NCBI GenBank assembly: GCA_938003525.1
Contig: CALKYM010000058.1
Location: 1 to 26,003 of the forward strand
Reading direction: 5' to 3'
Length of the DNA stretch: 26,003 nt
DNA from: an uncultured Planctomycetales bacterium
GTDB taxonomy: Bacteria > Planctomycetota > Planctomycetia > Pirellulales > JAEUIK01
Part shown: positions 2,593-26,003 of the stretch, piece after piece
How positions within the stretch are numbered: the stretch's first letter is position 1
How the letters are laid out: every line of letters begins with the position of its first letter
Position numbers and translations under genes: made by a program
Notes under the pieces: model-generated
What the model was told of the DNA's origin: nothing
Seen by the model: only the letters and a program-made list of their open reading frames with translations
The model's database searches: none

Positions 2593-2610
2593 AGCGAAAG
2601 CGAGTGACTG

Positions 2611-3105: not shown

Positions 3106-3153
3106 ACGAACCCCATCGGTCAGCTACACGGCTAGTCGACGAGACGGACGAAC

Positions 3154-4707
3154 ATGAACCCCACTATGGCTCCCGAAACGCCTCCCGAGAAGAAGCCCAA
3201 GGCGTTGAGGCGGTTTCGCCGCAACTTGGCTGAGACGCCGCGGCTGTTTCGCGATTCGCTGGTCCGACACGGTCGGCCCACATCGGATCGCAGTGCGTCG
3301 CAGGCCATCTTCACCAACTTCTTCTTGCATATCATTCCGACCCGCATCGATCGCTACTCCCTGCGGATCCGAGCGACGCTGGGCTTGGGCGTGATCACAA
3401 CAGTGCTCTTCCTCCTGCTGACCGGAACGGGGATTGCACTGATGATCTACTACAAGCCCAGCACGGCGGAAGCCTACAACTCGATGAAGGACATTCACTA
3501 CGTCGTGCCAACAGGCCGCTTTATGCGAAACATCCACCGCTGGGCCGCCCACGGCATGGTGGCCTGCGTGTTTCTACATATGGCCCGCGCCTTTTACACC
3601 GGCGCCTACAAGGCCCCGCGCGAGTTCAATTGGGTTATCGGCATGGGGCTGTTCGTGTTGACCCTGTTCCTGAGTTTCACGGGTTACCTGCTGCCGTGGG
3701 ACCAGCTCGCGTTTTGGGCGGTCACCATCGGATCGGAAATCGCGCAATCACCGCGCGAGCTCACTGACGCCTTGGGCATCACGCAATGGTTCGATCCGGG
3801 CGGTGCGCAAAAACACATTTTGCTGGGCGCCAATCATGTGGGCGAAGAGGCCTTGATTCGGTTCTATGTCTTGCACGTGATCGTGCTCCCCTTGGCGACG
3901 ACCGTGCTCTTGGGCGTCCACTTCTGGCGGATTCGAAAAGACGGCGGTCTGACGCGACCTGCACGACCGGTAGTGCACGACCGCATTGTCGCCCAGCAAG
4001 CCCCCGCCAAGACCTATGGACTGATGGCGGTCGTGCGCGGGCGCACGCCGGCTGTGGATCGCGAGATGGCAACGACCGTGCCCGCTTGGCCCAACGCCAT
4101 CTTCGCCATTGCTGCGCTGAGCATGTTGACGATGGCGGTGATGCTGGCCCTGGGACTCGTGCTCGACGCGCCGCTAAAAGAAGAAGCCAACCCGGCCGTG
4201 CCTGAGAATCCTGCCAAGGCCCCCTGGTACTTCCTTGGTTTGCAGGAGCTCGTCAGTTACTCAGCGTTCATGGGTGGAATCGGCATTCCGGCCTTGGTCG
4301 TACTGGGCCTGATGCTGGTGCCGTATCTCGATCGCGAGCGGGAGAACATCGGCGTCTGGTTCGGCGGACGTCAGGGTAAATACGTGTGCCTGTTGTCGGC
4401 CGTGTTCACGGCAGCCGTGGTCGTGGGGATTCTCGCGTTCACCGTGACGCAAGGCTGGCTGCGCAATTGGTATCCCGATATCCCCCAGGTCGTGATCACG
4501 TTTGTGAACCCGGGGACGGTGATGCTGGTGATCTTCGCCCTCTGGTCGTTCGCGATCATGTCGGTCAGCAATTCAACGCGCATGGGTGCGTTGGCAGTCT
4601 TCACTTGTTTCCTGATCGCTTTCATCATCCTGACGTACTTTGCAATCGTGCATCGTGGCCCGAACTGGGATTTCTATTGGTCGCAGAGTCAGTGGCCCAG
4701 GCACTAG
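3154..4707 (+). CDS. Cytochrome b subunit of a bc-type complex. At 517 aa it is a long form with extra C-terminal helices.
   Basis: Helix-B haem-ligand region IHRWAAHGMVACVFLHMARAFYTGAY, which fits the Y.H..RG.Y..Y pattern. LLPWDQLAFWAVTIGSEIAQS segment. PEWY-type Qo motif present as APWYFLGLQE. Many hydrophobic helices through the C-terminus. Gene follows the Rieske gene after 48 bp. Confidence 0.85.
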   Translation: MNPTMAPETPPEKKPKALRRFRRNLAETPRLFRDSLVRHGRPTSDRSASQAIFTNFFLHIIPTRIDRYSLRIRATLGLGVITTVLFLLLTGTGIALMIYYKPSTAEAYNSMKDIHYVVPTGRFMRNIHRWAAHGMVACVFLHMARAFYTGAYKAPREFNWVIGMGLFVLTLFLSFTGYLLPWDQLAFWAVTIGSEIAQSPRELTDALGITQWFDPGGAQKHILLGANHVGEEALIRFYVLHVIVLPLATTVLLGVHFWRIRKDGGLTRPARPVVHDRIVAQQAPAKTYGLMAVVRGRTPAVDREMATTVPAWPNAIFAIAALSMLTMAVMLALGLVLDAPLKEEANPAVPENPAKAPWYFLGLQELVSYSAFMGGIGIPALVVLGLMLVPYLDRERENIGVWFGGRQGKYVCLLSAVFTAAVVVGILAFTVTQGWLRNWYPDIPQVVITFVNPGTVMLVIFALWSFAIMSVSNSTRMGALAVFTCFLIAFIILTYFAIVHRGPNWDFYWSQSQWPRH

Positions 4708-4719
4708 GAATATCGTGCG

Positions 4720-7515: not shown

Positions 7516-7569
7516 GTGACCACACGTCCAGAGTAGGCGAGTCAAACAACTACGCGCCAGAACAATCAA

Positions 7570-7595
7570 CGGCGCAGCTCAAGGCGCCGCACTTT
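7570..7595 (+). terminator. GC hairpin with a short T-containing tail in the 150-bp gap between the cytochrome c gene and the molybdoenzyme gene. Candidate partial terminator, attenuator or processing site.
   Basis: CGGCGC-AGCTCAAG-GCGCCG is a perfect 6-bp stem with an 8-nt loop, followed by CACTTT. No long U tract, which is common in GC-rich genomes. Confidence 0.25.
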
Positions 7596-7665
7596 AGGAA
7601 AACGATAAGAAGCACACTTGATGCAGCGGTGAGCGAACACCGAACAGCCCTAAAGGATTCCAGTC

Positions 7666-10398
7666 ATGCCGAAGCAACGAGATCTCTCGCCGTTCGACCG
7701 CCGCGCATTCATGAAGATGGCGGCCACCACCGGGGCGGCTGTCAGCGCCACGTCGCTTTATCCAGAGGAGTTCGTCCAGTCTGCTGCCGCCGCATCGGCA
7801 ACGCCTGCGGCGGGGATCAAGCTCTTGCAGTCTGCTTGTCCTTACTGCGGCGTGGGCTGTGGCACCTTGATCAAAGTTGAAAACGGTCAGGTCGTGGGCA
7901 TGGTGCCCGACAAGAAGCACCCCACCAATCAGGGCATTCAGTGCATCAAAGGGCTCAACGCGCACGAACCCATCTATCGCGATCGACTGACAAAGGTGCT
8001 GGTGCGCAAGGACATGAGCGATCCCCTCCGCGGGCACGTCTCCGGCACCAAGGGCCGCTTCGACGACGACGTGTTTGACGAGGTGTCGTACGAGGAAGCC
8101 GAAGAGATCGTCGCCGAGCGGATTGCTGAGATCGTCCGCGAACGAGGCGGAAACTCGATCGGATTGAACGGCAGCGGTCAGCTAACGATGGAGGCCCAAT
8201 GGATCGAAAACGTCTTGATGAAAGGCGTGCTGGGCAGCAACTCGATCGAGGCCAACGCGCGGATGTGTATGACTTCAGCCGTGACGGGCTACTTTCACAG
8301 CTACGGTTCCGATGCACCGCCCACCAGCTACGAGGACATTGAACAGGCGGACTTCATCACGTTTTGGGGACACAATGCCCGCGAGGCGCATCCGATCCTG
8401 TTTTGGCGCGTGGCCGACCACAAGCAACAGACGGATATTCCCACGCTGGTTGCCGATCCGCGCCGCACGGGATCCGTAATTGGGCTGGAGAACATCAATC
8501 CCCGCAACAGCCTTCACATCCAAACGCTCAATGGCGACATCAGCTATCAAAACGCCATCGCGCACGTACTGTTGACCAAGTATCCCGACGCGATCATGCC
8601 GGAAGACTGGTTGAAGGACAACGTCAACGGATACCGCGAATACATCGATGGAGTGCTCGAACGCTACTCGCCCGAGCAGGTTGTCGAGCGACTTCAACTG
8701 CTCGACCGCGGACGCGTGACGGTGGAGACCATTGAACAGGTCGCGCAGTACTGGGCCGACGCCACGCGCAAGGGGCGACAGCGCGGAAGAGGCGGCGTGC
8801 TTTCCTTCTGGGGTATCGGCTACAACCAGATGCTGCACGGTCAACACAACACGATTAGCATCATCAACCTCCACTTGCTGACGGGCAATCTCGGGCGGCC
8901 CGGCTGCGGCAGCCATTCGCAAACCGGTCAGCCCAACGCCATGAGCGAGCGGCTCATGGGCGGGCTCACCGGACGTTTGCCGTTTAATCGTCCGCTGTCG
9001 GACGACAACTGGCGCGACCACATTGCCGACGAGTGGGGCATCTCCCGCGAGCGACTCAAGCAGACGTCGATCATGCCCAACCCGGGTATGGCGGTTGGCT
9101 TGATGGAACGCGCGCTGAAGGACGACCTGTTGGCCATGTTTTGGATGTACACGACGCATGTGCACATGCCGGATCTGGATACGCTGGTTCGACCGGCGCT
9201 GACCAAGATGTTTTGCGTCGTGCAGGAAATCTATCGTCACGCGCCGAACCTGTTGTACGGCGATGTGATCTTTCCAGCATCGACATGGGGCGAATGGTCA
9301 GGCGGTACGTACATTCAGAGCGAGCGCCGTGTCTACGTGTGCGACGGCACAAACCATCCGCCGGAGAATTGTCGTCCCGATATGGACATGGCGATCGACA
9401 AGACGAAGCTGCTGGCCAAGAAGCTGGGACTCGATGCCGACAAGATCATGCCGTTCGAGAAGAAGATTCGCTCGGGCAATGGCCTCATGGTGTACGATCC
9501 CGAGGAGGTGTTTCGCGCCATTGCGGTAGCCAGCAAAGGCAGCGACGCAGATATGTCGGGGATGATCGAGGTCGAGCAACGCGACGGCATCAGCGTCTAC
9601 GACCAACTCCGCGAATTGCGCGGCGTGCAGTGGCCCGCACCCACCTACGACATCGCACGAGCTGGTGGGACTCCGCGTCGGTACCTGGGCCAGGAAGGGT
9701 GGGCCGGCAAACCGTACGGTGCGTTTCGCCACCCGGATGGCAAGGCCCAGATGAAGCTGTGCGAACAATCGTACGACCGCATCCACGAGATCACCGACAA
9801 GTTGATGCAGTACGGTCATCGCGACCGACCCGGAGCGGGGCCCTACTTCGTCGACGACATTGCGCAGGCCAAAGCAGAAGGCCGCAAGAATCTTCTGGAA
9901 GAAGCCAGGGATGCTGCGCTCACCCCCGAGCTACCAGACCTGGAAGTCTATGCCGACGCAACGCTCGGCTTGGACGACCACAAACGCCAGGACGTCTATC
10001 CGTTCTGGCTGGGACTGGGAATCGTCTACGAGCACTTTCACACGGCCAAGACGATTCGCGGCGCGACAACCCGCAAGCTCGTTCCCGAGCAGTACGTCGA
10101 GATGAGTGTCGGCGACGCGCAGCGCTTCGGGCTTCGAGACGGCGACCCCGTTCGGCTGGTGACGCGGCGCGGGACGTATGAAGCGCGCGTCACGGTCGGC
10201 TTGCAAAGCGAGCTGCGACCCTCCCGGAGCGAGTTGCCCGAGGGCTACCTGTTCAGTCCTTGGAATCTCTCGGTGGCCGATAGTGCTGATCCGACCAAGA
10301 ACCGCTGGCTGGTGAACGCCGTCAGCCATCGGGCCTGGGACCCTGTGAGTGGCCAGGCAGATTTCAAGAAGCTGGCAGCGCGGATCGAAAGGATCTGA
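7666..10398 (+). CDS. Tat-exported bis-MGD molybdopterin oxidoreductase catalytic subunit in the Nap/Nas/Fdh clade. Probably a periplasmic NapA-like reductase, but the substrate is not determinable from sequence.
   Basis: Twin-arginine signal DRRAFMKMAATTGAAVSATS. N-terminal [4Fe-4S] motif CPYCGVGCG ... QCIKG, which is CX2CX3C plus a distal Cys. MopB-type core, 910 aa. C-terminal molybdopterin-binding-like segment VEMSVGDAQRFGLRDGDPVRLVTRRGTYEARV. SD-like AAAGGA lies 9 nt upstream of the ATG. Confidence 0.8.
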   Translation: MPKQRDLSPFDRRAFMKMAATTGAAVSATSLYPEEFVQSAAAASATPAAGIKLLQSACPYCGVGCGTLIKVENGQVVGMVPDKKHPTNQGIQCIKGLNAHEPIYRDRLTKVLVRKDMSDPLRGHVSGTKGRFDDDVFDEVSYEEAEEIVAERIAEIVRERGGNSIGLNGSGQLTMEAQWIENVLMKGVLGSNSIEANARMCMTSAVTGYFHSYGSDAPPTSYEDIEQADFITFWGHNAREAHPILFWRVADHKQQTDIPTLVADPRRTGSVIGLENINPRNSLHIQTLNGDISYQNAIAHVLLTKYPDAIMPEDWLKDNVNGYREYIDGVLERYSPEQVVERLQLLDRGRVTVETIEQVAQYWADATRKGRQRGRGGVLSFWGIGYNQMLHGQHNTISIINLHLLTGNLGRPGCGSHSQTGQPNAMSERLMGGLTGRLPFNRPLSDDNWRDHIADEWGISRERLKQTSIMPNPGMAVGLMERALKDDLLAMFWMYTTHVHMPDLDTLVRPALTKMFCVVQEIYRHAPNLLYGDVIFPASTWGEWSGGTYIQSERRVYVCDGTNHPPENCRPDMDMAIDKTKLLAKKLGLDADKIMPFEKKIRSGNGLMVYDPEEVFRAIAVASKGSDADMSGMIEVEQRDGISVYDQLRELRGVQWPAPTYDIARAGGTPRRYLGQEGWAGKPYGAFRHPDGKAQMKLCEQSYDRIHEITDKLMQYGHRDRPGAGPYFVDDIAQAKAEGRKNLLEEARDAALTPELPDLEVYADATLGLDDHKRQDVYPFWLGLGIVYEHFHTAKTIRGATTRKLVPEQYVEMSVGDAQRFGLRDGDPVRLVTRRGTYEARVTVGLQSELRPSRSELPEGYLFSPWNLSVADSADPTKNRWLVNAVSHRAWDPVSGQADFKKLAARIERI

Positions 10399-10399
10399 C

Positions 10400-11047
10400 A
10401 TGCCAGTCGATCGTCGCTCATTCTTGCGAAACGTAGCCGGTCTTGCCGCCGTGTCGACTGCCGCGGCCGGCACTTCGGGATTGTGGAGCGGAGGTGCGCA
10501 AGCAACAGACGCTCCTCTGCGGCCACCAGGAGCCCTTCCGGAGGATGAATTCCTCTCCACGTGTATCCGCTGTATGCGCTGCGTCGACTCGTGCCCGAAC
10601 CATTGTCTCGAGTCGACGCCTGTCACGGCAGGCGCCCAAATTGCGGGCACGCCGCAAATGCATCCGCGACGTCAGGCGTGCATGTTGTGCAGCCGGGCTG
10701 AGGGTGACTACTTACGGTGCACGGCCGCCTGTCCCACCGGAGCCCTGCGGCCCATCAAGAAAGACATTCTCCAGATTCGAGAGCACGTCCGCATTGGTGT
10801 GGCCGAGATCGATCTGAATCTGTGCTACTCGTACAACAACTATACGTGCGGCACCTGCTTTCATGCCTGCCCGCTGCAAGGCGAAGCCATCACGCTGGGC
10901 CTTTGGGAACGGCCGCAAGTGCATCCCGAGGCGTGCATCGGCTGTGGCCTTTGCGAGCGCGCCTGCATCCGTTACCCGCACGCGATTCGGGTCAAAGCGA
11001 CGGACAGACCGCACCAGCAGGAACCCGCATCGCCCTCTTCGTCATGA
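10400..11047 (+). CDS. Tat-exported NapG/MauM-like periplasmic polyferredoxin with four FeS cluster motifs. This is copy 1.
   Basis: The six-frame ORF opens at 10349. The internal ATG at 10400 sits 2 nt after the upstream TGA, with AAAGGA 6 nt upstream. RRSFLRNVAGLAAV is a Tat motif. Cys motifs CIRCMRCVDSCP, CMLCSRAEGDYLRCTAACP, CYSYNNYTCGTCFHACP and CIGCGLCERAC. Confidence 0.75.
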   Translation: MPVDRRSFLRNVAGLAAVSTAAAGTSGLWSGGAQATDAPLRPPGALPEDEFLSTCIRCMRCVDSCPNHCLESTPVTAGAQIAGTPQMHPRRQACMLCSRAEGDYLRCTAACPTGALRPIKKDILQIREHVRIGVAEIDLNLCYSYNNYTCGTCFHACPLQGEAITLGLWERPQVHPEACIGCGLCERACIRYPHAIRVKATDRPHQQEPASPSSS

Positions 11048-11676
11048 ATATCTCGCGGCGTACATGGTTGCAATTGTTTCGGCGCGGCGTTCGCGGCCTC
11101 GCGTTTGCTGGAGCCTGGATCGCGCTGGCCGTGGCGTTGCGCCGACCTGCGGCGCCGCGACATACGGCGCGACCACGTGTGGACGAACCACAGGAGTTCA
11201 CCTTTCGGCCACCCGGCGCATTGCCGGAATCCGACTTTCTGGCTCGCTGTATCCATTGTTATCTGTGTCAGGACGTCTGTCCGCCCGGGTGCATCTTGAT
11301 GAAGCCCGACACCGAGCCGGACCGCCATACTCCGTACATCACGCCTCGCCTCAAGGCCTGCACGCTGTGTCTGAAGTGCTGCGACGTCTGCCCCACCGGC
11401 GCGCTCACGCGGCTATCGAACAAGCGTGACGTGCAGATGGGCCTCGCTGCGGTGGACGAGACGATCTGCGTTTCGCATCTGCGGACCGGCGCCTGCGGAG
11501 CCTGCTTCACTGCGTGTCCCTTGAGGGGCGATGCGATCACGCAGGGATTGTACAACGCACCGTACGTCAACCCCGAGCATTGCACGGGTTGTGGACTGTG
11601 CGAAGAGGTGTGCATCGTCCCCTATCGAGCCATCCGCGTGTATCCAACGGAACACGTGTCGGAGGGTGTGGCATGA
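11044..11676 (+). CDS. Tat-exported NapG/MauM-like periplasmic polyferredoxin, copy 2.
   Basis: The ATG at 11044 overlaps the upstream stop (ATGA). The product begins MNISRRTWLQLFRRGVRGLAFAGAWIALAVA, a Tat motif plus a hydrophobic region. Cys motifs CIHCYLCQDVCPPGC, CTLCLKCCDVCPTGA, CVSHLRTGACGACFTACP and CTGCGLCEEVC. The listed ORF 10717..11676 is the same frame with a spurious upstream extension. Confidence 0.75.
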   Translation: MNISRRTWLQLFRRGVRGLAFAGAWIALAVALRRPAAPRHTARPRVDEPQEFTFRPPGALPESDFLARCIHCYLCQDVCPPGCILMKPDTEPDRHTPYITPRLKACTLCLKCCDVCPTGALTRLSNKRDVQMGLAAVDETICVSHLRTGACGACFTACPLRGDAITQGLYNAPYVNPEHCTGCGLCEEVCIVPYRAIRVYPTEHVSEGVA

Positions 11677-13322
11677 TAGGCCGCCTGATCCCGCCGATTC
11701 GCCGCACGGTGCAAGTGCTAAGCCTGCTGTTGGTCGGGCTGTTGCCGGTTCTCGCACTGTACACCCATCATCATGAAGCCCACGCGATCGACGACCTTCC
11801 GACCGACGACTGGCGCACGGCGGCGATTCGCACGGTCGATCGCGTCGTGGGCGATGATGAAGGCCGCGAGCATTTGGCCAAAAGCACGCAGGGAACTATC
11901 TGGTCGCTGCGACTCGCGGGATACAGCGTGTCAGATCCGTTGGCGGGTGCTGAGGCGATCGTCACGAGCCGCAGCTTTTACCAACCGCTGATGTGGTCGG
12001 TGCTGCTGCCGATTGTCGCCAGCCTGTTGCTGGGCCGTGTGTTCTGTGGGTGGATCTGCCCGGTCAACACGCTGTTGGAAGTCGTCGACCGTGGCCGTCG
12101 CCTGTTGCGGATTGCCGAAATTCGCCCCAGGGACGTCAGGTTCTCGCTGTGGAACAAGTACCTCGTGCTTGCGCTTGGACTGCTGATCGCTGGCGTCACT
12201 TCCGTGCCGTTCTTGGCTCTGTTCTATCCGCCCGCCGTGCTCAGTCGCGAAACGCATCTGTTCGTTTTCGGGGCGACGTTGGGATTGGGGCTGTACTTCT
12301 TGCTCGCCATTGTCCTGTTTGAACTCTTCGTCAGCCGGCGTTGGTGGTGCCGCTATATGTGCCCAGGCGGCGCGCTGTATTCGCTCTTCGGTCACTTGCG
12401 GGTTGTCCGAGTACGGCGCGACGACGACAAGTGCGTCAAGTGTGGCGAATGCGTCCGTGTCTGCCAGTTCGACCTGCGACCCATGTTGCACCACACTACA
12501 GGCTCTGAGTGCACCAACTGTGCGGCGTGCATCTCGGTTTGCGATTCCGATGCCTTGCACTACAGGTTGACGGCACCGCTCCCCATTCTTCACCCTGATC
12601 GCGCGGCCGTTTCTACAAGAGCCCCTGAGTCCGCCGCGCCGGAGGCGGAGCCGACGGAGGACGATCGACGTTCATCTGCGACATCCAAGGTGCTGCATAG
12701 CGGGCTGGGCCTGCTGCTGGCTTGCTTCATCACGAACCAAGCCCACGCGCACCATATTCTCGGACTGCCACACTACTCCTACAAAGACAACTACCCTCAA
12801 GCGCCGACCCTCGAGTATCCCGCCACGACGGGACCTTACCAGGTGCTGATGACCTGTTATCCAGGCACGCCGGTGCCGGGCGAAGCGTCGACCGTGGCCT
12901 TCTATATCAAGCATATTCAGGGCGACACGCCGTACGCTCAACCGGTAACCATGCGCGTGCTGCAGACCTTCACATTCGGTTCGAGCCGCGAAATCGTCGC
13001 TCCATCGCAGCGCGAGCCCTTCGACAATCAACACCGCTACACGGTCACGTTTCCGCAAGACGGCGAATACATTGTCGAGTTGACCATGGATGTCGAGGGC
13101 CGGCCGGAAGTGATTCCGTTCCTGGTGGTGTGCGGCAATCCTACAGCGACCAAGTCGATAGTCGTCTTCCTGGGCGGAGGGCTGGCCGTGTTCCTGGTTT
13201 CTGTGCGCGCGATCAAGAAAAAGCGTGAGCGCCGCGCCACAAAAGCGCGGTCACGCGGCAAGCTGACAAACGAGACAACTTCTTCCGCCGAACAAGATAC
13301 AGCCTCGCCGCTGGCTCACTGA
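11673..13322 (+). CDS. NapH/MauN-like integral-membrane iron-sulfur protein with two CX3CP motifs and two [4Fe-4S] motifs, plus a C-terminal extension of about 230 aa ending in an extra TM helix.
   Basis: The ATG at 11673 overlaps the upstream stop (ATGA), with GGAGGG 7 nt upstream. TM helices are present. GWICPVNTL and WWCRYMCPGGALYS are CX3CP motifs. CVKCGECVRVCQFD and CTNCAACISVCDSD are ferredoxin motifs. The C-terminal region (HHILGLPHYSYKDNYP ... VVCGNPTATKSIVVFLGGGLAVFLVSVRAIKKKRERR) has a soluble domain flanked by hydrophobic helices. Confidence 0.7.
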   Translation: MIGRLIPPIRRTVQVLSLLLVGLLPVLALYTHHHEAHAIDDLPTDDWRTAAIRTVDRVVGDDEGREHLAKSTQGTIWSLRLAGYSVSDPLAGAEAIVTSRSFYQPLMWSVLLPIVASLLLGRVFCGWICPVNTLLEVVDRGRRLLRIAEIRPRDVRFSLWNKYLVLALGLLIAGVTSVPFLALFYPPAVLSRETHLFVFGATLGLGLYFLLAIVLFELFVSRRWWCRYMCPGGALYSLFGHLRVVRVRRDDDKCVKCGECVRVCQFDLRPMLHHTTGSECTNCAACISVCDSDALHYRLTAPLPILHPDRAAVSTRAPESAAPEAEPTEDDRRSSATSKVLHSGLGLLLACFITNQAHAHHILGLPHYSYKDNYPQAPTLEYPATTGPYQVLMTCYPGTPVPGEASTVAFYIKHIQGDTPYAQPVTMRVLQTFTFGSSREIVAPSQREPFDNQHRYTVTFPQDGEYIVELTMDVEGRPEVIPFLVVCGNPTATKSIVVFLGGGLAVFLVSVRAIKKKRERRATKARSRGKLTNETTSSAEQDTASPLAH

Positions 13323-13446
13323 AGCCGGGCAAACGAAACAACGCGAAACGCAAGCCCGCACTGGTGACAGCTCGCCCCGTTCAGATCTGACAGACGCGAC
13401 ATTCGCAACAACAGCCTAAGACCGACGCCCTACTGAGAACCGACCG

Positions 13447-15447
13447 ATGCGGGCCCTTGTCAAGATATTCTTGCCGTATTCTGTATTGTTGGCTGTCGCC
13501 GTCGCGGTGTACGTGTCGACATTCCGCGCCCCTTCGCAGGCGAGTTCTGCTCCCGAGCGCGGCGAGGAATCGACGCCGCTCGATCCGGTGTGCCACATGG
13601 AAGTCAACCCGAGTTGGCAACATCAGGCGACGCACGAGGGCGAAGTCTACTGGTTCTGCACCAGTCGTTGTCGCGACCGCTTCGTCGCTTCCCCCGACTC
13701 ATTTCTCGGCGAGCGCTGCGTCGTGTGCAACGACTTGGTGGAAGCCGATGCGTCGTTGCCGGCGACCTATTTGGGCAAAACCTACCACCTCTGTTCTCAA
13801 GAGCATCGCCGCGAGTTCAAAGCCGACCCGGCGGCGTTCTTCATGCACACCATGTGGGGCATCCCTCCCTGGTTGTACTACGGATCGATTGCCGGTGTGC
13901 TCGTCGTCAGCTTCGGTGTTTTCGAGCGACGGGATCGAAAGACTTCATCGGGAACCCTTTCGGTCTCACCGTCGGGCGAGCTGACTCTGGACGATAAACC
14001 TAACACGTCGTTTGTACGCAGCGCTGCGGAACGAATCGATCTGCTACGCAGTCCACTGCTTCGCGCGGTCTTCACATCGCGGCGGCTGCGCTTTTGCGCG
14101 CAGGCCACGATGGTTCTGCTCTTCTTTCTGATCATTGCCGCCGGGCTGTTTGGCAATCAGAACCCGGCATTGAACATCGCGCCCATTCTGACATGGACCG
14201 TCTGGTGGGGCGGCCTGGTTGTGTTGATCATGTACGCCGGCAAGGCCTGGTGTTACATGTGCCCCTGGGACGCCGTTGCCGGCTGGATGGCGAAACTTAG
14301 ACTTTGGACCAAGACCGATGAGCGGCTCGGGCTTGATCTCAAGTGGCCGCCCGCCGTTCGCAACATCCTCGTCGCCACGTTGCTCTTCGTCGGTCTGACC
14401 TGGTTCGAACTTGGCTTCGGCGTGACGATGCGCCCGCGTGTGACTGCCTATCTGGCGATCGCGATGTTGCTGATGGCCATCGTCTCCGCGTTTTTGTTCG
14501 AGCGCCAGAGTTTCTGCAGATACGGCTGTCTGGTGGGCCGCGTGAGCGGCCTGTATGCCATGTTCTCCGGCGTTGAGGTCCGCGCCCGCGACGAAGCGGT
14601 TTGTCGCACGTGCGAGGGAAAAGAGTGTGTGCGCGGTAGTGAAAACGCCTATGGCTGTCCGACGTTTCTTTATCCGGGCAAGCTCAAAACCAACACCTAC
14701 TGTATTCAATGTACCGAGTGCATTCAGGCCTGCCCGGAGGACAATCTGACGATCAATATGCGTCCCTGGGGGGCCGACTTGGCCGCCGAACATCGGCCGC
14801 GGCAGGACGAGGCCTATCTGGCTCTGCTGATGCTGGCAATCACGGGCTTTCACGGGCTGACCATGACGCCCAACTGGGCGCTGCTCACCGGCTGGATGAG
14901 CGAAGTCTTTTCACTGGGACGCGTGATTGCCTTTACGCTCGGAATGACCTTGCTGCTCTTGGCGCCGATCGCCGTCTACGCCGTGTTGATTGGAGTGTCT
15001 CACCGCTTGGCGTTGGGCACTCGACACATCGAGAGGCGCGACCTCACCTACGGCGACTACTTCATTCGCTACGCGTACGCTTTGCTGCCCATCGCGCTCT
15101 TCTACCATCTCGCACACAATCTCGAACACCTGCTGCTGGAAGGGCCGAAGGTTGTGGCGCTTTTTTCCGATCCGTTCGGCTGGGGCTGGAATCTGTTCGG
15201 CACGAGCGATTGGGTGGTGCCGCCACTCGTCTCGCTCGAGGCACTGTGGATCGTACAAGTGCTGCTCGTGCTGGTGGGCCACGTCTACAGCCTGTGGGCG
15301 GCCCAACGCACGAGCGTCAACATCTTTGGCAGCCACAAGGTCGCGTTCCGCAGCCAACTCCCGATGCTCGTCGGCATGATTGCCTTCAGCGTGTTCAGCC
15401 TCTGGCTGCTCAAACAGCCCATGGAAATGCGGACCAGCGCCATGTGA
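13447..15447 (+). CDS. Membrane polyferredoxin of the CcoG/FixG/NapH family with two N-terminal YHS/TRASH metal-binding domains. Putative metal (cupric) reductase.
   Basis: N-terminal signal/TM MRALVKIFLPYSVLLAVAVAVYV. YHS-type motifs DPVCHMEV...YWFCTSRCRDRF and CVVCNDLV...YHLCSQEHRREF. Multiple TM helices. WCYMCPWD and FCRYGCLVG cysteine motifs. C-terminal ferredoxin motif CIQCTECIQACPEDN, plus CRTCEGKECV. Gene follows the NapH-like gene after 124 bp on the same strand. Confidence 0.7.
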   Translation: MRALVKIFLPYSVLLAVAVAVYVSTFRAPSQASSAPERGEESTPLDPVCHMEVNPSWQHQATHEGEVYWFCTSRCRDRFVASPDSFLGERCVVCNDLVEADASLPATYLGKTYHLCSQEHRREFKADPAAFFMHTMWGIPPWLYYGSIAGVLVVSFGVFERRDRKTSSGTLSVSPSGELTLDDKPNTSFVRSAAERIDLLRSPLLRAVFTSRRLRFCAQATMVLLFFLIIAAGLFGNQNPALNIAPILTWTVWWGGLVVLIMYAGKAWCYMCPWDAVAGWMAKLRLWTKTDERLGLDLKWPPAVRNILVATLLFVGLTWFELGFGVTMRPRVTAYLAIAMLLMAIVSAFLFERQSFCRYGCLVGRVSGLYAMFSGVEVRARDEAVCRTCEGKECVRGSENAYGCPTFLYPGKLKTNTYCIQCTECIQACPEDNLTINMRPWGADLAAEHRPRQDEAYLALLMLAITGFHGLTMTPNWALLTGWMSEVFSLGRVIAFTLGMTLLLLAPIAVYAVLIGVSHRLALGTRHIERRDLTYGDYFIRYAYALLPIALFYHLAHNLEHLLLEGPKVVALFSDPFGWGWNLFGTSDWVVPPLVSLEALWIVQVLLVLVGHVYSLWAAQRTSVNIFGSHKVAFRSQLPMLVGMIAFSVFSLWLLKQPMEMRTSAM

Positions 15448-23458: not shown

Positions 23459-24568
23459 CTACAGCAGGTTGACAACCCGGTCGGCCAGGCCCTTTTCGCC
23501 CAGCACAACGTTGAGCTTGCCGCTGGTGGCGACCTTCTCCAGGACTTCCAGTTCGCGGAGTCGCATCAACGTCGGGTTGTCTGCCAACAGCCGCGCCGTA
23601 TTGGCCTGCGACCGCATGGCGGCCGTCTCTTCACGGCGAACAATCAGATTCGCCTCGGCGGCCTTCTTGGCCTCCGTCACGCGGTTGAGCAGTTCCCTCA
23701 TATCGCCCGGCAGGATCACGTCGCGGACACCAACCGATGCGACTTCCAGGCCCAGCTCGCCCGCGCGGCGGCGAACCGTCTCGGCGAACTCGTCCGTGAC
23801 CGCGTCCTTGTCCGTCAGGAACGCGTCGAGTTCGCGCGTCGCGACCACAGCCCGCAGCGCCAACTGCGCCTCGCGGTACAGCGACTGCTGCGCGCCGTCG
23901 GCGACGCTCACCGCCAGTCGCGGGTCGACGACACGGTAGGTGACCACGGCGTTCATCCGCAGCGTGACCTTGTCGGCGGTCATGATTTCCTGACCCGCCA
24001 CATCCAAGGTCTGCTCGCGGAGATCGACCTGCACGACCTTCGCGTCGGCCGCGTTCAGCCAGAACGCGTACTTACCCGGCGGCAGCGTCTCGACATACTC
24101 GCCATCCTGGAACGACACGCCGACCGTGTGCCGCTCAACCGCGCAGACATCGAGCACTCGCGCAGCGCCAGCGCTGCGCACGATGACCTTGAAGTCCTCG
24201 TGCTCGAACCGCACGCGGCGGGCATCAACGACCTCTACGCGCACGTTCTTTGCGCCGATCCAGTACGCATACAGACCCGGCGGCAGGATGTGGCTGAAGC
24301 GACCCTCGATCCACACCAGTGCGCGCTCATAGTCCTTCAGGTCGACGACTTGAGCCAGACCGTCGAGCGCGCCGCTCTTGACGATCACGTCGAGCTGCTC
24401 GTGAACCAGCCACGGCGCCCGCTGTGACACGACCTCAACGTGAATCTTCCACGCCGGACCGAGCAGCCAGTGTCGGCCGGCGGCAAGCAGGCGCTGAAAC
24501 TCACCATCGCGGAAGTACAGGCCGATCTCGTAACGTCGAATCTTCACTCGCTTGAACAACATGGCCAT
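23459..24568 (-). CDS. SPFH/band-7 (stomatin/flotillin-like) domain protein with a triplicated N-terminal repeat.
   Basis: C-terminal SPFH-like core (DKVTLRMNAVVTYRVVDP ... YREAQLALRAVVATRELD ... AKKAAEANLIVRREETAAMRSQANTARL). The N-terminal half carries three repeats of about 50 aa: YEIGLYFRDGEFQRLLAAGRHWLLGP, YERALVWIEGRFSHILPPGLYAYWIGAK and HTVGVSFQDGEYVETLPPGKYAFWLNAA. A perfect AAGGAGG precedes the start; the true start may be the third codon (ATG at 24562). Confidence 0.65.
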   Translation of the reverse strand: MAMLFKRVKIRRYEIGLYFRDGEFQRLLAAGRHWLLGPAWKIHVEVVSQRAPWLVHEQLDVIVKSGALDGLAQVVDLKDYERALVWIEGRFSHILPPGLYAYWIGAKNVRVEVVDARRVRFEHEDFKVIVRSAGAARVLDVCAVERHTVGVSFQDGEYVETLPPGKYAFWLNAADAKVVQVDLREQTLDVAGQEIMTADKVTLRMNAVVTYRVVDPRLAVSVADGAQQSLYREAQLALRAVVATRELDAFLTDKDAVTDEFAETVRRRAGELGLEVASVGVRDVILPGDMRELLNRVTEAKKAAEANLIVRREETAAMRSQANTARLLADNPTLMRLRELEVLEKVATSGKLNVVLGEKGLADRVVNLL

Positions 24569-25018
24569 CCCTCCTTTCCTAGTGAGTGCTGTGTTTGTTG
24601 CACAAAATTATTGATCTATGCAGTAGATGATTCTTAGTCGCCGGTCCAGGTTCACAAGTTCTGAAAAAGACCCTCGGGCAGCGAAACGTATCGCTTGATC
24701 ACGCGCTCGAAACGCGGAGTCCGCTTGAGCGGTCAGTGGCGCGGTGCCGTCATTCGGACGCCGCCGATGTGGCCAGCACGGCATTGCCGGGCTGGCGCTC
24801 GTCGGCTTGATCCGAACTTGAGCACCGCGCGCATGAAGGCGGAATCTGCGGACTGCAAGGCGTCGAGCCACGCTGCCGCTACGCCACACCATTGCTTCGG
24901 CTTGGCCGCAGCCTCACCTTGGCGCTGGCGTCGCGCGCGGCCGATCAAACGATCGTCCGCTGCCCTCGGGCTTCTTGGTCGCGGACGCTTGCGCGCCCAT
25001 GCAGGCTGTTCGCCTGCG

Positions 25019-25091
25019 GAGTTGGTACGGGAGTCGAACCCGTGACAGCCAGATTAGCAGTCTGGTGCTCTAACCACTGAGCTAACCTCAT
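25019..25091 (-). tRNA. tRNA-like gene with anticodon GCU, a class-I (short variable arm) body, and a 5' acceptor strand that does not pair with the 3' strand. Possible pseudogene or atypical tRNA.
   Basis: Minus-strand read: TA-GCTCAGTGGTTAGAGC (canonical D arm), then CCAGA-CTGCTAA-TCTGG (anticodon arm, U33, anticodon GCT), variable CTGTC, T arm ACGGG-TTCGACT-CCCGT (A58 present), and 3' acceptor ACCAACT + C. The 5' strand is ATGAGGT, so only 4 of 7 acceptor pairs form. GCU (Ser) tRNAs normally have a long variable arm, which is absent here. Confidence 0.4.
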
Positions 25092-25268
25092 GGCGGTTTC
25101 GTCTTCGCTTTCGTCAGAACCCAGTCACGGAACGCACGGAACCAACCGCTTTACTGGGGCGCCGTGCGCCGCTGGCCCAGCGATCGCAAAACCTTGCTTG
25201 CAAAGAGACGCCTTGGGTGTGCGTTCGCGCCGTAGCATCTCTCTGTGCAGCACTGATGCCGATGTCGT

Positions 25269-25289
25269 GTCCTTGCCAGGAACCGAACC
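25269..25289 (-). pseudogene. tRNA 3'-end fragment (T arm plus acceptor 3' strand), a near-copy of the 3' end of the tRNA at 25378..25450.
   Basis: Minus-strand GGTTCGGTTCCTGGCAAGGAC versus GGTTCGATTCCTGGCAAGGAC in the intact tRNA, which is 20 of 21 identical. A58 is replaced by G, the T stem would be mispaired, and there is no matching 5' acceptor, D arm or anticodon arm upstream. Confidence 0.35.
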
Positions 25290-25377
25290 AGCAACCGAGC
25301 ACGGCCGCCTCGAATGGCAGCCGTGCGCAGGGCGGTAGCGATTGCACAGGCGGCACTCTCGAGCGCGTGCTGCAAAA

Positions 25378-25450
25378 TGTCCTTGCCAGGAATCGAACCT
25401 GATCTTCGACCTTCGCAAAGTCGCGTGCGAATCCGGCACACTCCAAGGAC
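25378..25450 (-). tRNA. tRNA, Arg-like by anticodon (GCG as read). A canonical 73-nt cloverleaf with no encoded CCA.
   Basis: Minus strand: GTCCTTG / GA / GTGT-GCCGGATTC-GCAC / G / CGACT-TTGCGAA-GGTCG / AAGA / TCAGG-TTCGATT-CCTGG / CAAGGAC / C. Perfect 7-bp acceptor stem, and TTCGATT is a textbook T loop. The anticodon loop gives U33 and anticodon GCG, which is unusual for bacteria. Confidence 0.6.
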
Positions 25451-25531
25451 AATCTACCGAGCACAATCAACCGAGCACGCTTGCCAGATGGCAAGCGTGC
25501 GCCAGGCGATAGCCCTGTGTAGCTTCGGTAG

Positions 25532-25603
25532 CAGCCCGCCGAGGAATCGAACCCCGTCTTGCAGATCCGAAGTCTGCCGTGCGGTCCAGCACACTCGCAG
25601 GCC
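25532..25603 (-). tRNA. tRNA, Arg-like by anticodon (UCG as read). Its backbone is closely related to the tRNA at 25378..25450.
   Basis: Minus strand: GGCCTGC / GA / GTGT-GCTGGACC-GCAC / G / GCAGA-CTTCGGA-TCTGC / AAGA / CGGGG-TTCGATT-CCTCG / GCGGGCT / G. The acceptor stem has 5 Watson-Crick pairs plus 2 G-U pairs. It shares the GA-GTGT...GCAC-G...AAGA...TTCGATTCCT skeleton with the neighbouring tRNA. Confidence 0.55.
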
Positions 25604-26003
25604 GTGTTGTAGTGGAGCTCGCTGAAGAGCGATACGCCTCAGCTTCTTCTATTGGCAACTCGACTATCGCGTTCTGCCTCTCTCCTCCCTCATCGGTCGG
25701 TGGCAGAACTTGATAGAGCCGACGACTGGATTCGCACCAGCATGATCCGCTTTACGAGAGCGGCGCCTTTCTCACTCGAGCCACGTCGGCAAATGACTTA
25801 TCGGTGCAGCGTTGTGGCCGGTCCAAGTCTGAATTGGTTCGCGCCAAGTCGGTTTGACTCAGGGTGCCACTGGCTGCTCACCAGCCAGTGAGGAGCTTCG
25901 GCAACTCACGTGGCCAGCAATTCTTGAATCGCAGCCCGTGGCACCTTCAGTTCAAACTTGAGCCAACAAGAAACTCAGCACTATCGCACAAGCAGGAGTG
26001 CCA

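What the first reader, a model, noticed from the sequence alone, without database searches (positions are those of the whole stretch)
25019..25603. Cluster of three tRNA-like genes with atypical anticodons plus a tRNA 3'-end fragment
Within 600 bp on the - strand there are two well-folded tRNAs whose anticodons read GCG and UCG. Both are Arg by the code and both are uncommon bacterial isoacceptors, and the two share a near-identical backbone. There is also a tRNA-like gene with anticodon GCU but a class-I short variable arm and a mismatched acceptor stem. A 21-nt near-copy of a tRNA 3' end sits about 90 bp from its parent, and a further degenerate T-arm-like motif (GGAACCAACCG) lies at about 25138-25148. 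Duplicated tRNA 3' ends are the usual scar of integrase-mediated insertion or excision at tRNA att sites, so the odd anticodons and the fragment may mark a decayed integration hotspot or a non-canonical tRNA array. The window ends here, so any adjoining element is unseen.
Basis: seen in the sequence. Interest (0 to 1): 0.55.

Follow-up and report, generated by a model that had tools for sequence, protein, structure and literature searches.

The report
tRNA array end plus tRNA-shaped RNA
The odd tRNAs are the last genes of a long extra tRNA array known from planctomycete bacteria, but the fourth "tRNA" is a tRNA-shaped part of a large, conserved and apparently undescribed structured RNA that always sits in front of a slipin (SPFH) gene.

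Summary
ARAGORN and Rfam find Arg(GCG), Arg(UCG), a tRNA-like body with loop CUGCUAA, and also Thr(CGU) just outside the given coordinates. The 22-nt repeat is 21/22 identical.

The att-site reading is not supported. In 33 of 80 related Pirellulales/Planctomycetales loci, the same slipin gene is preceded by 10-39 same-strand tRNA genes in a fixed order ending Arg(CCG)-Arg(UCG)-Arg(GCG)-Cys(GCA). The window shows only the eroded last few genes of such an array.

GCG and UCG are the array norm; A34 anticodons are almost absent. These tRNAs keep perfect cloverleaves with compensatory changes and G18-G19-A20, despite oddities such as G8.

The GCU element is not a decoder. Its body is nearly invariant, its acceptor stem keeps only 3 pairs, and its anticodon drifts freely (27 triplets in 92 copies).

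It lies inside a ~510-nt conserved RNA: a 5' stem-loop, the tRNA-like domain, and a ~300-nt multi-helix domain (74 pairs counting the tRNA-like domain and P1, 51 compensatory). This RNA always precedes slipin, with or without an array, and matches no Rfam family.

The arrays are known. The RNA appears new, and its function is inferred only.

The parts
25716..25790 (-). tRNA-Thr(CGU), an array member. It is the orthologue of the Thr(UGU) gene that follows Trp in relatives. It has an odd T-loop (UGCGAAU) and a D-loop without GG.
   Evidence: ARAGORN. Rfam 44.7 bits. 91% identical to L002 and L005 Thr(UGU). The odd loops are shared by most members of this Thr family.
25531..25603 (-). tRNA-Arg(UCG), an array member
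   Evidence: ARAGORN. Rfam 36.2 bits. Family alignment A2 gives a clean cloverleaf with 16 of 21 pairs showing compensatory changes and G18-G19-A20 invariant.
25467..25513 (-). Palindromic spacer element (GCGCACGCUUGCCA..UGGCAAGCGUGC, then UCGGUUG)
   Evidence: Perfect 12-nt inverted repeat I6. The motif occurs only in the array region of the window and in array spacers of relatives.
25377..25451 (-). tRNA-Arg(GCG), an array member
   Evidence: ARAGORN. Rfam 41.2 bits. Family covariation.
25285..25339 (-). Second copy of the palindromic spacer element
25268..25289 (-). Truncated tRNA 3' end (T-arm 3' half plus acceptor 3' strand), 21/22 identical to the 3' end of Arg(GCG). Read as a remnant of an eroded array gene.
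   Evidence: Repeat family D2.
25205..25212 (-). Last ~8 nt (GGCGUCUC) of the tRNA-Cys(GCA) gene that occupies this slot in relatives. The rest of the gene is missing.
   Evidence: Homology with relatives starts here. A Cys profile finds no gene in this slot.
25113..25175 (-). Conserved 5' stem-loop domain (CCAGCGGCGC-variable stem-GUGUUCCG..(A/C)UGGGUUCUGAC).
   Evidence: Alignment. RNAalifold A3: 18 pairs, 11 with compensatory changes.
25024..25087 (-). tRNA-shaped domain. It has an intact D-arm, anticodon stem and T-arm, a 3-bp acceptor stem, and anticodon loop CUGCUAA.
   Evidence: Rfam 55.8 bits over model positions 5-66. Orthologues in 57 of 80 loci with a near-invariant body and variable anticodon. 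Acceptor positions 1-3 pair only at chance level.
24983..25017 (-). Two small hairpins (P1 25001-25017, P2 24983-24998) directly after the tRNA-shaped domain
   Evidence: P1: 5 pairs, all with compensatory changes. P2 is read by eye from alignment A1; RNAalifold did not predict it. Both appear in the single-sequence fold.
24670..24971 (-). Large multi-helix RNA domain closed by a long helix (24943-24971 pairs with 24670-24700)
   Evidence: RNAalifold on 47 sequences gives 74 pairs, 51 compensatory. 92.7% of cells are paired against 33-44% in slid controls, and 0 of 500 shuffles reach the observed values. Coordinates mapped. Window fold z-score -7.3.
24664..24668 (-). U-run directly after the closing helix. 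It may be a terminator or the 3' end of the RNA.
   Evidence: Read from the sequence. A T-rich run at this place in many but not all relatives.
23459..24562 (-). Slipin (SPFH/Band 7) gene, the invariable downstream neighbour. The start is probably the second ATG, with an AAGGAGG ribosome-binding site about 7 nt upstream.
   Evidence: Pfam Band_7 1.8e-29. Relatives align from residue 3. Sources name homologues 'slipin family protein'. Matches stomatin structures.

Best explanation
**What it is**

The genes at 25377-25790 (Thr-CGU, Arg-UCG, Arg-GCG, minus strand) are the last members of a long same-strand array of extra tRNA genes. This array sits directly upstream of the slipin gene in many Pirellulales and Planctomycetales. 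The window ends about 210 nt beyond the Thr gene, so the rest of the array is unseen.

Array tRNAs are divergent in sequence, for example G at position 8 in the Arg genes and G55 with a GG-less D-loop in the Thr gene. They are nevertheless conserved, foldable tRNAs that carry arginine identity elements. The array uses G34, U34 and C34 anticodons throughout, so GCG and UCG are its normal CGN decoders.

This particular copy is eroded. tRNA-Cys is deleted except for its last ~8 nt, a 22-nt Arg-like 3' end is left over, and the spacers hold palindromic elements.

The fourth 'tRNA' (25024-25087) is not part of the array and not a decoder. It is a tRNA-shaped domain inside a ~510-nt conserved structured RNA (about 25175 to 24664). 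That RNA always precedes slipin, whether or not an array is present.

**How it most likely works (inferred)**

- The array is transcribed toward slipin as a multi-tRNA precursor. It supplies supernumerary tRNAs, by analogy with the stress-induced Anabaena trn operon.
- The tRNA-shaped domain serves as a folded recognition or processing module of the RNA. Its elbow and anticodon stem are constrained, while its anticodon and acceptor end are not.
- The RNA itself is most likely a cis-acting leader of slipin. Less likely, it is a free-standing RNA ending at the U-run.
For: **Array**
- 33 of 80 slipin loci carry 10-39 upstream same-strand tRNA genes in a conserved order ending Arg(CCG)-Arg(UCG)-Arg(GCG)-Cys(GCA).
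- Metagenome loci carry up to 40.
- Anticodon census in arrays: Arg GCG 38, UCG 32, ACG 3; A34 is nearly absent.
- Arrays are supernumerary. The description of Aeoliella strain SH292 and five compared Lacipirellulaceae strains lists 46-77 tRNA genes per genome (PMC13315336). The SH292 locus (L009) carries no array.
- An HNH endonuclease gene is embedded in at least 20 arrays, as in described L-arrays (PMC8421152).

**The array tRNAs are real tRNAs**
- 40 Arg(GCG/UCG) sequences give 21 pairs with none broken and 16 with compensatory changes. GGA (G18-G19-A20) is invariant.
- The odd loops of the Thr gene are shared by most of its family.

**Erosion of this copy**.

**tRNA-shaped domain**
- Near-invariant body in 57 loci.
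- Acceptor positions 5-7 are paired in 52-54 of 54 sequences. Positions 1-3 are paired in 20-37%, about the ~37% chance level or below it.
- 27 different anticodons in 92 copies.
- Anticodon columns are as diverged between close relatives (0.20-0.33 identity) as unconstrained flank columns (0.23-0.43).

**Structured RNA**
- 74 pairs, 51 with compensatory changes.
- 92.7% of cells paired against 33-44% when partners are slid. 405 double-change cells against 67-98. 0 of 500 shuffles reach the observed values.
- The 5' domain has 11 of 18 compensatory pairs.
- The window copy has a fold z-score of -7.3.
- Many G-U pairs fix the strand as that of slipin.
- All reading frames are equally 'conserved', so the region is not protein-coding.

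**Linkage without ascertainment bias**
- A 19-mer from the RNA core finds 108 metagenome loci. Of these, 66 have both the tRNA-like element upstream and slipin downstream, 2 more have slipin about 1.1 kb away, and most of the rest are cut by contig ends or are chance hits.
Against: - Only three array genes are visible in the window, so the size of this organism's array is unknown. A nearly identical 6.9-kb metagenome contig (L001) also ends there.
- No expression, processing or charging data exist for any of these RNAs. Co-transcription and the leader role are inferences from order, strand and adjacency.
- Array tRNAs score low on general tRNA models. One paper calls such clusters 'degenerate' and possibly dispensable (PMC4807772).
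- The closing helix followed by a U-run could mean the RNA ends before slipin.
- The U-run is absent in some lineages.
- The sequence-level invariance of the anticodon stem is not explained by a purely structural role.
Confidence: 0.8

Rival explanations
1. The duplicated tRNA 3' end and the odd tRNAs mark an integrase-mediated att site, or a decayed integration hotspot for a mobile element lying beyond the window.
For: A 22-nt near-perfect copy of a tRNA 3' end exists. Arrays are present or absent at the same site in related genomes, and their upstream flanks are not conserved. Both are what an insertion site would look like.
Against: - The repeat copies are 88 nt apart with nothing between them.
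- No integrase gene turned up among the large ORFs of the 26-kb window that were scanned or as a conserved neighbour.
- The array lies 5' of the tRNA-like element, not at a tRNA 3' end.
- HNH and slipin identities co-vary (r = 0.69). No pair has near-identical HNH proteins alongside strongly divergent slipin proteins. This argues for long co-residence rather than recent insertion.
- The same erosion also removed most of tRNA-Cys.
Confidence: 0.05
2. The array tRNAs, including the window's Arg and Thr genes, are decaying pseudogenes of a horizontally acquired cluster and have no function.
For: They score low on general tRNA models: 36-45 bits here against 50-63 for the tRNA-like domain. Position 8 is U in only 539 of 862 array tRNAs. 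Kim et al. describe 'degenerate tRNA gene clusters' with low Cove scores. The window copy has lost Cys and carries a truncated gene.
Against: - There is not one broken pair in 40 Arg sequences across two orders, and 16 of 21 pairs show compensatory changes.
- G18-G19-A20 and C35 are kept.
- The non-canonical features themselves are conserved within families, which decay would not produce.
- Gene order is conserved.
Confidence: 0.12
3. The variable anticodon of the tRNA-shaped domain is a specificity determinant under diversifying selection. Examples would be a decoy or sensor for anticodon-directed nucleases, or pairing with a variable partner.
For: - There are 27 triplets in 92 copies while the rest of the body is near-invariant.
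- Anticodon identity is lower than identity at 4-fold sites of slipin in every divergence bin.
- Two module copies on one MAG contig (L034 and L070), highly similar across the RNA region, differ at all three anticodon bases.
Against: - Unconstrained flank and D-loop columns are just as diverged between the same close pairs, so neutral drift suffices.
- No triplet complementary to the anticodon is found at any fixed position of the downstream RNA.
- Slipin has no match in a defence-system library.
Confidence: 0.12
4. The ~510-nt RNA is a free-standing, trans-acting non-coding RNA, possibly a partner of the slipin protein, rather than a cis-acting leader of the slipin mRNA.
For: - The closing helix is followed by a U-run.
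- The stretch between the U-run and the ribosome-binding site is unconserved and varies in length, leaving room for a separate slipin promoter.
- Other large bacterial RNAs (ROOL, GOLLD) also lie next to tRNA genes (my own knowledge; PMC12286853, listed but not read, covers their structures).
Against: - Strict same-strand, immediately-upstream placement in 68 of about 71 informative metagenome loci. This holds in genomes whose upstream flanks are otherwise scrambled, which is typical of cis-regulators.
- A segmental duplication keeps the RNA attached to the slipin 5' end (L051).
- The U-run is missing in some lineages.
Confidence: 0.35
5. The GCU element is an ordinary tRNA gene (Ser or Asn) that has recently become a pseudogene in this genome.
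For: The acceptor stem is mismatched and the anticodon does not fit the body. The body resembles ordinary tRNAs annotated Ile, Lys and similar in phage records.
Against: The same truncated acceptor stem, invariant body and position relative to slipin are found in 57 of 80 genome loci and about 85 metagenome loci across two orders. A recent pseudogene would not be conserved in this way.
Confidence: 0.02

Closest known systems
[quoted passage not shown] 2021, PMC8421152) and 'tRNA array units' (Tran et al. 2016, PMC4758250)
   Same: Relatives carry dozens of same-strand, closely spaced tRNA genes covering nearly all amino acids. These add to a housekeeping set. A neighbouring HNH endonuclease gene is present. 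Both surveys list Planctomycetes among the phyla with such arrays.
   Different: L-arrays are described as scattered and spread by horizontal transfer. Here the array sits at one fixed locus across two orders, in a fixed gene order. Its HNH protein diverges in step with the neighbouring host gene, with repeated loss or erosion. The window itself shows only three genes.
'Degenerate tRNA gene clusters' of Planctomycetes (Kim et al. 2016, PMC4807772, S2 text)
   Same: This is probably the same phenomenon: 2-28 low-scoring tRNA genes in Rhodopirellula and relatives, including a tRNA-Ile(UAU) that I also see in the arrays.
   Different: That paper regards the genes as partially degraded, fast-evolving and dispensable. 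Here the Arg and Thr families show clean covariation and conserved identity elements. The link to slipin, the tRNA-shaped domain and the structured RNA are not mentioned there: searches for 'band 7' and 'stomatin' found nothing.
Anabaena sp. PCC 7120 trn operon
   Same: It is a supernumerary tRNA operon with an adjacent, co-regulated homing (HNH-type) endonuclease. It is silent normally and induced under translational stress. It is the only functional model for such arrays.
   Different: It is not in Planctomycetes, has no slipin and no tRNA-shaped RNA module. Regulation of the planctomycete arrays is untested.
tRNA-like domains inside other RNAs: bacterial Y RNA YrlA, tmRNA, viral 3' tRNA-like structures, MALAT1 mascRNA (from my own knowledge)
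   Same: In each, a tRNA-shaped fold is used as a recognition or processing module rather than for decoding, and the anticodon identity is irrelevant.
   Different: The element here keeps a complete D-arm, anticodon arm and T-arm with canonical tRNA sequence (up to 63 bits on the tRNA model). It lacks a full acceptor stem and is embedded between a 5' stem-loop and a ~300-nt 3' domain. It has no Ro/Rsr or SmpB context. No Rfam family other than tRNA matches it.
ROOL and GOLLD large ornate RNAs
   Same: They are large structured bacterial RNAs of unknown function that tend to lie next to tRNA genes (my own knowledge; PMC12286853, listed but not read, covers their cryo-EM structures).
   Different: Their Rfam models do not match here. 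Those RNAs are typically in prophages of Firmicutes and similar hosts. This RNA is chromosomal, restricted to Planctomycetes so far as seen, and tied to one gene (slipin).
tRNA-gene att sites of integrative elements
   Same: A duplicated tRNA 3' end is present.
   Different: The repeat copies are 88 nt apart, no element lies between them, and no integrase turned up nearby.

Membership tests
Long tRNA array (L-array / tRNA array unit) | At least ~20 tRNA genes at a density of 2 or more per kb, all on one strand (Tran et al. definition, abstract) | tested here: inconclusive
   The window holds 3 tRNA genes plus the tRNA-like element in ~770 nt on one strand and then ends. Orthologous loci hold 20-40 genes in 4-6 kb.
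Long tRNA array (L-array / tRNA array unit) | The genes are supernumerary to a housekeeping tRNA set | tested here: met
   Canonical tRNAs, for example Arg(CCG), lie elsewhere in the same loci. The SH292 locus (L009) has no array, and the compared Lacipirellulaceae strains have 46-77 tRNA genes. This was not testable for the window's own genome.
Long tRNA array (L-array / tRNA array unit) | Associated HNH or homing endonuclease gene | tested here: met
   A 197-aa HNH protein is encoded between His and Trp in at least 20 arrays of relatives. It lies outside the window.
Long tRNA array (L-array / tRNA array unit) | Scattered distribution caused by horizontal transfer | tested here: not met
   The locus and gene order are fixed across two orders. 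HNH and slipin identities correlate, Pearson 0.69. Presence or absence is better explained by loss.
Genuine tRNA-Arg | Cloverleaf maintained by compensatory change | tested here: met
   21 pairs, 0 broken in 40 sequences, 16 with compensatory changes.
Genuine tRNA-Arg | ArgRS identity elements A20 and C35 (established for E. coli; my own knowledge) | tested here: met
   GGA in the D-loop is invariant, and the anticodons are NCG.
Genuine tRNA-Arg | Universal U8 (and A14) | tested here: not met
   Position 8 is G in nearly all array Arg genes. It is U in only 63% of all array tRNAs.
Genuine tRNA-Arg | Expression, CCA addition and aminoacylation | not testable with these tools
   No transcript data are available.
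Genuine tRNA-Ser(GCU), for the element at 25024-25087 | Long (class II) variable arm | tested here: not met
   The variable region is 5 nt, CUGUC.
Genuine tRNA-Ser(GCU), for the element at 25024-25087 | Seven-pair acceptor stem | tested here: not met
   There are 3 contiguous pairs in the window. No orthologue has 7, and positions 1-3 pair only at chance level.
Genuine tRNA-Ser(GCU), for the element at 25024-25087 | Anticodon conserved among orthologues | tested here: not met
   27 different triplets in 92 orthologues.
Integrase att site at a tRNA gene | Direct repeats of a tRNA 3' end flanking an element that encodes an integrase | tested here: not met
   The repeats are 88 nt apart. No integrase turned up in the window ORFs scanned or as a conserved neighbour. 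Sequence beyond 26003 is unseen.
Any Rfam 15 family other than tRNA (including ROOL, GOLLD, RNase P, tmRNA, Y RNA) | Covariance-model match | tested here: not met
   No relevant hit at E <= 1 in window 24500-26003, or at E <= 0.1 in six relatives.

The most novel reading that the evidence does not exclude
The conserved ~510-nt unit is a new class of large structured bacterial RNA. It consists of a 5' stem-loop, an acceptor-less tRNA-shaped domain with a free anticodon, and a ~300-nt multi-helix domain closed by a long helix. It is specific to Planctomycetia and obligatorily coupled to the slipin gene. On this reading the tRNA-shaped domain is a functional recognition module, for example for tRNA-binding proteins or RNase P. 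The long tRNA arrays have accreted next to it or been retained there because of it.
Probability: 0.5. Interest if true: 0.75.

Novelty: new variant of a known kind. Interest (0 to 1): 0.6.

Why it matters
The array part is a known curiosity. The comparative data change how it should be read. These planctomycete 'degenerate' tRNAs are conserved, co-varying and kept in order at one locus over long evolutionary distances. They are therefore probably a used, alternative tRNA set that decodes without A34/inosine.

The more valuable result is the constant module next to the array. It is a large, strongly co-varying RNA with a built-in tRNA-shaped domain that is absent from Rfam. Large structured bacterial RNAs of unknown function are rare and have repeatedly led to new biochemistry.

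This RNA comes with an obvious handle: one linked gene, slipin. It also occurs in culturable strains both with the array (Adhaeretor mobilis, Lacipirellula limnantheis) and without it (Aeoliella sp. SH292). That makes its function directly testable.

Tried and rejected
- **Extending the window by exact-protein look-ups.** Two guesses at the slipin start were not on record. The DUF1330 protein led only to a 6.9-kb contig, 99.7% identical, that also ends within the window's last ~200 nt.
- **Phage origin.** A phage database search gave only generic tRNA similarity for the tRNA-like body. One 'viral' IMG/VR contig (L082) carries the same chromosomal module and may be a misclassified chromosomal contig.
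- **Protein-coding spacer.** All six frames of the 450-nt spacer look equally 'conserved', so the conservation is at the nucleic-acid level.
- **Anticodon pairing with the downstream RNA.** No aligned position holds the complementary triplet in more than 11% of sequences.
- **Diversifying selection on the anticodon.** It looked faster than 4-fold sites (one search was mis-registered by one base and was redone). Unconstrained flank columns are equally diverged, so the test does not support selection.
- **Decayed tRNA-Cys in the window.** A Cys profile finds nothing in the slot. Only the last ~8 nt align.
- **Conserved upstream neighbour or integrase.** None was found.
- **Slipin as a defence gene.** It has no PADLOC match. 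NCBIfam gives only sub-threshold HflK similarity.
- **Rhodopirellula-1 motif (Weinberg 2010).** This is an unrelated multi-copy hairpin.
- **Intrinsic terminator and sigma-70 promoter scans of 24400-26003.** Nothing above chance.
Full report
**1. The observation**

On the minus strand ARAGORN finds tRNA-Arg(GCG) at 25377-25451 and tRNA-Arg(UCG) at 25531-25603. Rfam's tRNA model scores them 41.2, 36.2 and 44.7 bits.

Rfam adds a fourth match at 25024-25087. It scores 55.8 bits but covers model positions 5-66 only. This element has anticodon loop CUGCUAA and a 5-nt variable region. Its acceptor stem has three pairs followed by three mismatches.

The repeated 3' end is real: 25268-25289 against 25378-25399, 21/22 identical. 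The two Arg genes share their D-arm and T-arm but are only roughly two-thirds identical, by my count from the alignment.

**2. Genomic setting**

The window is a chromosomal stretch of a planctomycete (about 61% G+C). It encodes cytochromes, a molybdopterin oxidoreductase and a DUF1501 protein. A 369-aa SPFH/Band 7 ('slipin') gene lies at 23459-24568(-), directly downstream of the tRNA region on the same strand. Nothing phage-like was seen.

A nearly identical 6.9-kb metagenome contig ends at window position 25811. No extension beyond 26003 could be obtained.

**3. What the tRNAs belong to**

I used the slipin protein to fetch 80 loci from one-genome-per-species collections (Pirellulales and Planctomycetales, slipin 68-81% identical). 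In 33 of them slipin is preceded by 10-39 tRNA genes on the same strand, in a largely fixed order. A typical run is:

Phe, Glu, Pro, Ile, Lys, Ile(UAU), Lys, Thr, Gly, Pro, Asn, Ser, Gly, Gln, Gln, Ser, Val, Leu, Asp, Leu, Tyr, Glu, Leu, Leu, Val, Thr, Ala, Ala, Ser, Arg, His, [HNH gene], Trp, Thr, Arg(CCU), Arg(CCG), Arg(UCG), Arg(GCG), Cys(GCA).

The gap between His and Trp encodes a 197-aa HNH endonuclease in at least 20 loci. The window therefore shows only the last genes of such an array. Its Thr(CGU) is 91% identical to the Thr(UGU) that follows Trp in L002 and L005.

Among 862 array tRNAs, Arg anticodons are GCG 38, UCG 32, CCG 22, UCU 22, CCU 11 and ACG 3. A34 anticodons are almost absent overall. 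GCG and UCG are thus the family norm, not an anomaly of this window.

In ordinary bacteria CGU, CGC and CGA are read by an ACG gene whose A34 is deaminated to inosine by TadA (established knowledge). This array does not rely on that route.

**4. Are the array tRNAs real?**

They are unusual. Position 8 is U in only 539 of 862. The Arg genes have G8. The window's Thr gene has T-loop UGCGAAU and a D-loop without GG.

These oddities are conserved within each family. Forty Arg(GCG/UCG) sequences fold into one cloverleaf with no broken pair, 16 of 21 pairs with compensatory changes, and G18-G19-A20 invariant. A20 and C35 are the classical ArgRS identity elements (my own knowledge). That is purifying selection on a tRNA, not decay.

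The arrays are extra to the housekeeping set:
- Canonical-looking tRNAs occur elsewhere in the same loci.
- The locus of Aeoliella sp. SH292 (L009) has no array.
- The six Lacipirellulaceae strains compared in the paper describing SH292 have 46-77 tRNA genes.

**5. Prior knowledge of such arrays**

Long tRNA arrays are known:
- Tran et al. 2016 list Planctomycetes among the phyla with arrays.
- Santamaria-Gomez et al. 2021 define 'L-arrays', note an adjacent homing endonuclease, and show stress induction in Anabaena.
- Kim et al. 2016 describe 'degenerate tRNA gene clusters' with low Cove scores and an Ile(UAU) gene in Planctomycetes.

The array as such is therefore not new. The planctomycete case differs from the usual 'scattered by horizontal transfer' picture:
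- One fixed locus and a fixed gene order across two orders.
- HNH and slipin identities co-vary: Pearson 0.69, mean identities 0.73 and 0.74. No pair has near-identical HNH proteins alongside strongly divergent slipin proteins.
- The upstream flank is not conserved at all.
- Some genomes with ample upstream sequence have 0-5 tRNA genes.

The pattern is best read as long co-residence with repeated loss.

**6. The repeat and the missing Cys**

In relatives, tRNA-Cys(GCA) lies between Arg(GCG) and the tRNA-like element. In the window, homology to relatives resumes only at about 25212, the last ~8 nt of Cys (GGCGUCUC). A Cys profile finds no gene in the slot.

The slot instead holds two things:
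- A palindromic spacer element, GCGCACG..CGUGC UCGGUUG. A second copy follows Arg(UCG). Such elements occur only inside arrays.
- The 22-nt Arg-like 3' end.

There are thus two truncated tRNA 3' ends and no intervening element. No integrase turned up among the ORFs scanned. I read these as deletion scars of an eroding array, not att sites.

**7. The fourth 'tRNA'**

Orthologues of the element at 25024-25087 lie 360-570 nt upstream of slipin in 57 of 80 loci. These include loci without any array (L009, L020, L030, L041).

Its body is almost invariant: GGUUAGCUCAG.UGG.UAGAGCACCAGA[7-nt loop]UCUGGCUGUCRCGGGUUCGAYUCCCGUACC. It scores higher on the tRNA model than the array tRNAs do, up to 63 bits.

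The acceptor stem is never complete. Positions 5-7 are paired in 52-54 of 54 sequences, position 4 in 54%, and positions 1-3 in 20-37%, which is about the ~37% chance level or below it.

The anticodon is free. There are 27 triplets in 92 copies, many with A34, and position 33 is often C.

I tested whether this is diversifying selection. Anticodon identity is below 4-fold-site identity in every bin. Two module copies on one contig (L034 and L070) differ at all three anticodon bases. However, unconstrained 5'-flank and D-loop columns are just as diverged between the same close pairs: 0.23-0.43 against 0.20-0.33. Neutral drift therefore suffices.

No complementary triplet occurs at a fixed place downstream. 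The element is a tRNA-shaped domain, not a decoder.

**8. The RNA around it**

The sequence from just after Cys to about 100 nt before the slipin start is conserved in all reading frames, so it is not coding. It folds.

Upstream of the tRNA-shaped domain is a stem-loop, at window 25113-25175, with 11 of 18 pairs compensatory.

Downstream are two small hairpins and a ~300-nt domain, at window 24670-24971:
- A long closing helix: alignment columns 194-216 pair with 548-571.
- An inserted hairpin: columns 218-226 pair with 336-344.
- A long irregular arm: columns 346-387 pair with 510-547.
- Conserved internal-loop sequences: GGCAGCA, UGYAGUGCGUGGAUACCGC, GCUCAAAC, CACUCCGC and GUGUGAUC.

On 47 sequences, 92.7% of cells form pairs against 33-44% when partners are slid. 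There are 405 double-change cells against 67-98, and 0 of 500 shuffles reach the observed values. Frequent G-U pairs fix the strand as that of slipin.

The window's own 521 nt fold at -272 kcal/mol, with a z-score of -7.3. The closing helix is followed by a U-run at 24664-24668, present in many but not all lineages. After that comes an unconserved linker, then AAGGAGG and the slipin start.

No Rfam 15 family other than tRNA matches, in the window or in six relatives. Literature searches found no description. The Rhodopirellula-1 motif is unrelated.

**9. Is the link to slipin an artefact of how I fetched the loci?**

No. A 19-mer from the RNA core was used to scan metagenome contigs independently of slipin. 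It returned 108 loci:
- 66 have the tRNA-shaped domain upstream and slipin downstream.
- 2 more have slipin about 1.1 kb away.
- 23 are cut by a contig end on one side.
- About a dozen appear to be chance matches.

Arrays upstream range from 0 to 40 genes. A partial duplication in L051 copies the tRNA-shaped domain, the RNA and the slipin 5' end as one piece.

**10. Mechanism: shown and inferred**

Shown:
- Identity and conservation of the array.
- tRNA-type selection on its members.
- Erosion in this copy.
- A tRNA-shaped, acceptor-less, anticodon-free domain.
- A large co-varying RNA on the slipin strand.
- Obligate order: (array) > 5' stem-loop > tRNA-shaped domain > 3' domain > slipin.

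Inferred:
- The array is transcribed toward slipin and processed by RNase P and RNase Z. It supplies an alternative, inosine-independent tRNA set under some condition, by analogy with Anabaena.
- The tRNA-shaped domain is a recognition or processing module. Its elbow and anticodon stem are constrained, which suggests a protein or RNA partner.
- The RNA is a cis-acting leader of slipin (about 0.55). Alternatively it is a separate RNA ending at the U-run (about 0.35).

None of this can be tested without transcript data.

**11. Verdict**

The att-site idea fails.

As an array, this is a new, eroded member of a known kind. The adjoining tRNA-shaped domain inside a large, Rfam-absent structured RNA tied to slipin is the part worth following up.

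Noticed in passing
L023:164-754 and about 20 other loci (for example L044:6291-6881, L002:7625-8200); not in the window: A conserved 197-aa HNH endonuclease gene sits inside the arrays between tRNA-His and tRNA-Trp. Its identity between genomes tracks that of slipin.
   Followed up: yes
window 25467-25513 and 25285-25339 (-); L003:3935-3988, L005:5135-5183, L002:7334-7388: Palindromic spacer elements (GCGCACG..CGUGC followed by UCGGUUG) occur only in spacers of the tRNA arrays, not elsewhere in the 26-kb window. They may be processing or termination sites, or a small repeat family.
   Followed up: partly
window 25857-25877 / 25931-25951: A 21-nt inverted repeat (86% complementary, 53 nt apart) lies upstream of tRNA-Thr, where relatives have tRNA-Trp. 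No tRNA is detectable there. Two independent assemblies break within about 200 nt of this point.
   Followed up: no
L034 and L070 (both from contig CAWDRV010000004.1, about 50 kb apart); L051:12072-12513: Some genomes carry two full copies of array, tRNA-shaped domain, RNA and slipin. The two copies in one MAG differ at all three anticodon bases (AAU against GUG). L051 has a partial duplicate that ends in a truncated slipin.
   Followed up: partly
L024 against L040 (alignment): The slipin genes are 97% identical at 4-fold sites, and the 5' domain and 3' core of the RNA are highly similar. The stretch from the anticodon to the P2 hairpin is strongly diverged. This mosaic suggests local recombination.
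   Followed up: no
window 24319-24355 against L001: The nearly identical metagenome contig L001 (99.7%) differs from the window by an indel of about 36 bp inside the slipin gene.
   Followed up: no
arrays in L003, L004, L005, L034, L043-L045 and others: The arrays carry a tRNA-Ile(UAU) gene and use G34, U34 and C34 anticodons almost exclusively. This is a near-complete decoding set that needs no A-to-I editing. ARAGORN also reports several over-long or 4-base-anticodon calls that may be miscalls or introns.
   Followed up: partly
L082 (IMGVR_UViG_3300007072_000340, 94 kb): A contig filed as viral in IMG/VR carries the same array, tRNA-shaped domain, RNA and slipin module. It may be a chromosomal contig misclassified because of its tRNA density.
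   Followed up: partly
window 463-15447 (+): A gene cluster encodes a pyridine-nucleotide oxidoreductase with Fe-S domains, a cytochrome b, a multi-haem cytochrome c (931 aa), a molybdopterin oxidoreductase and a polyferredoxin-like protein. It looks like a respiratory module and is unrelated to the finding.
   Followed up: no
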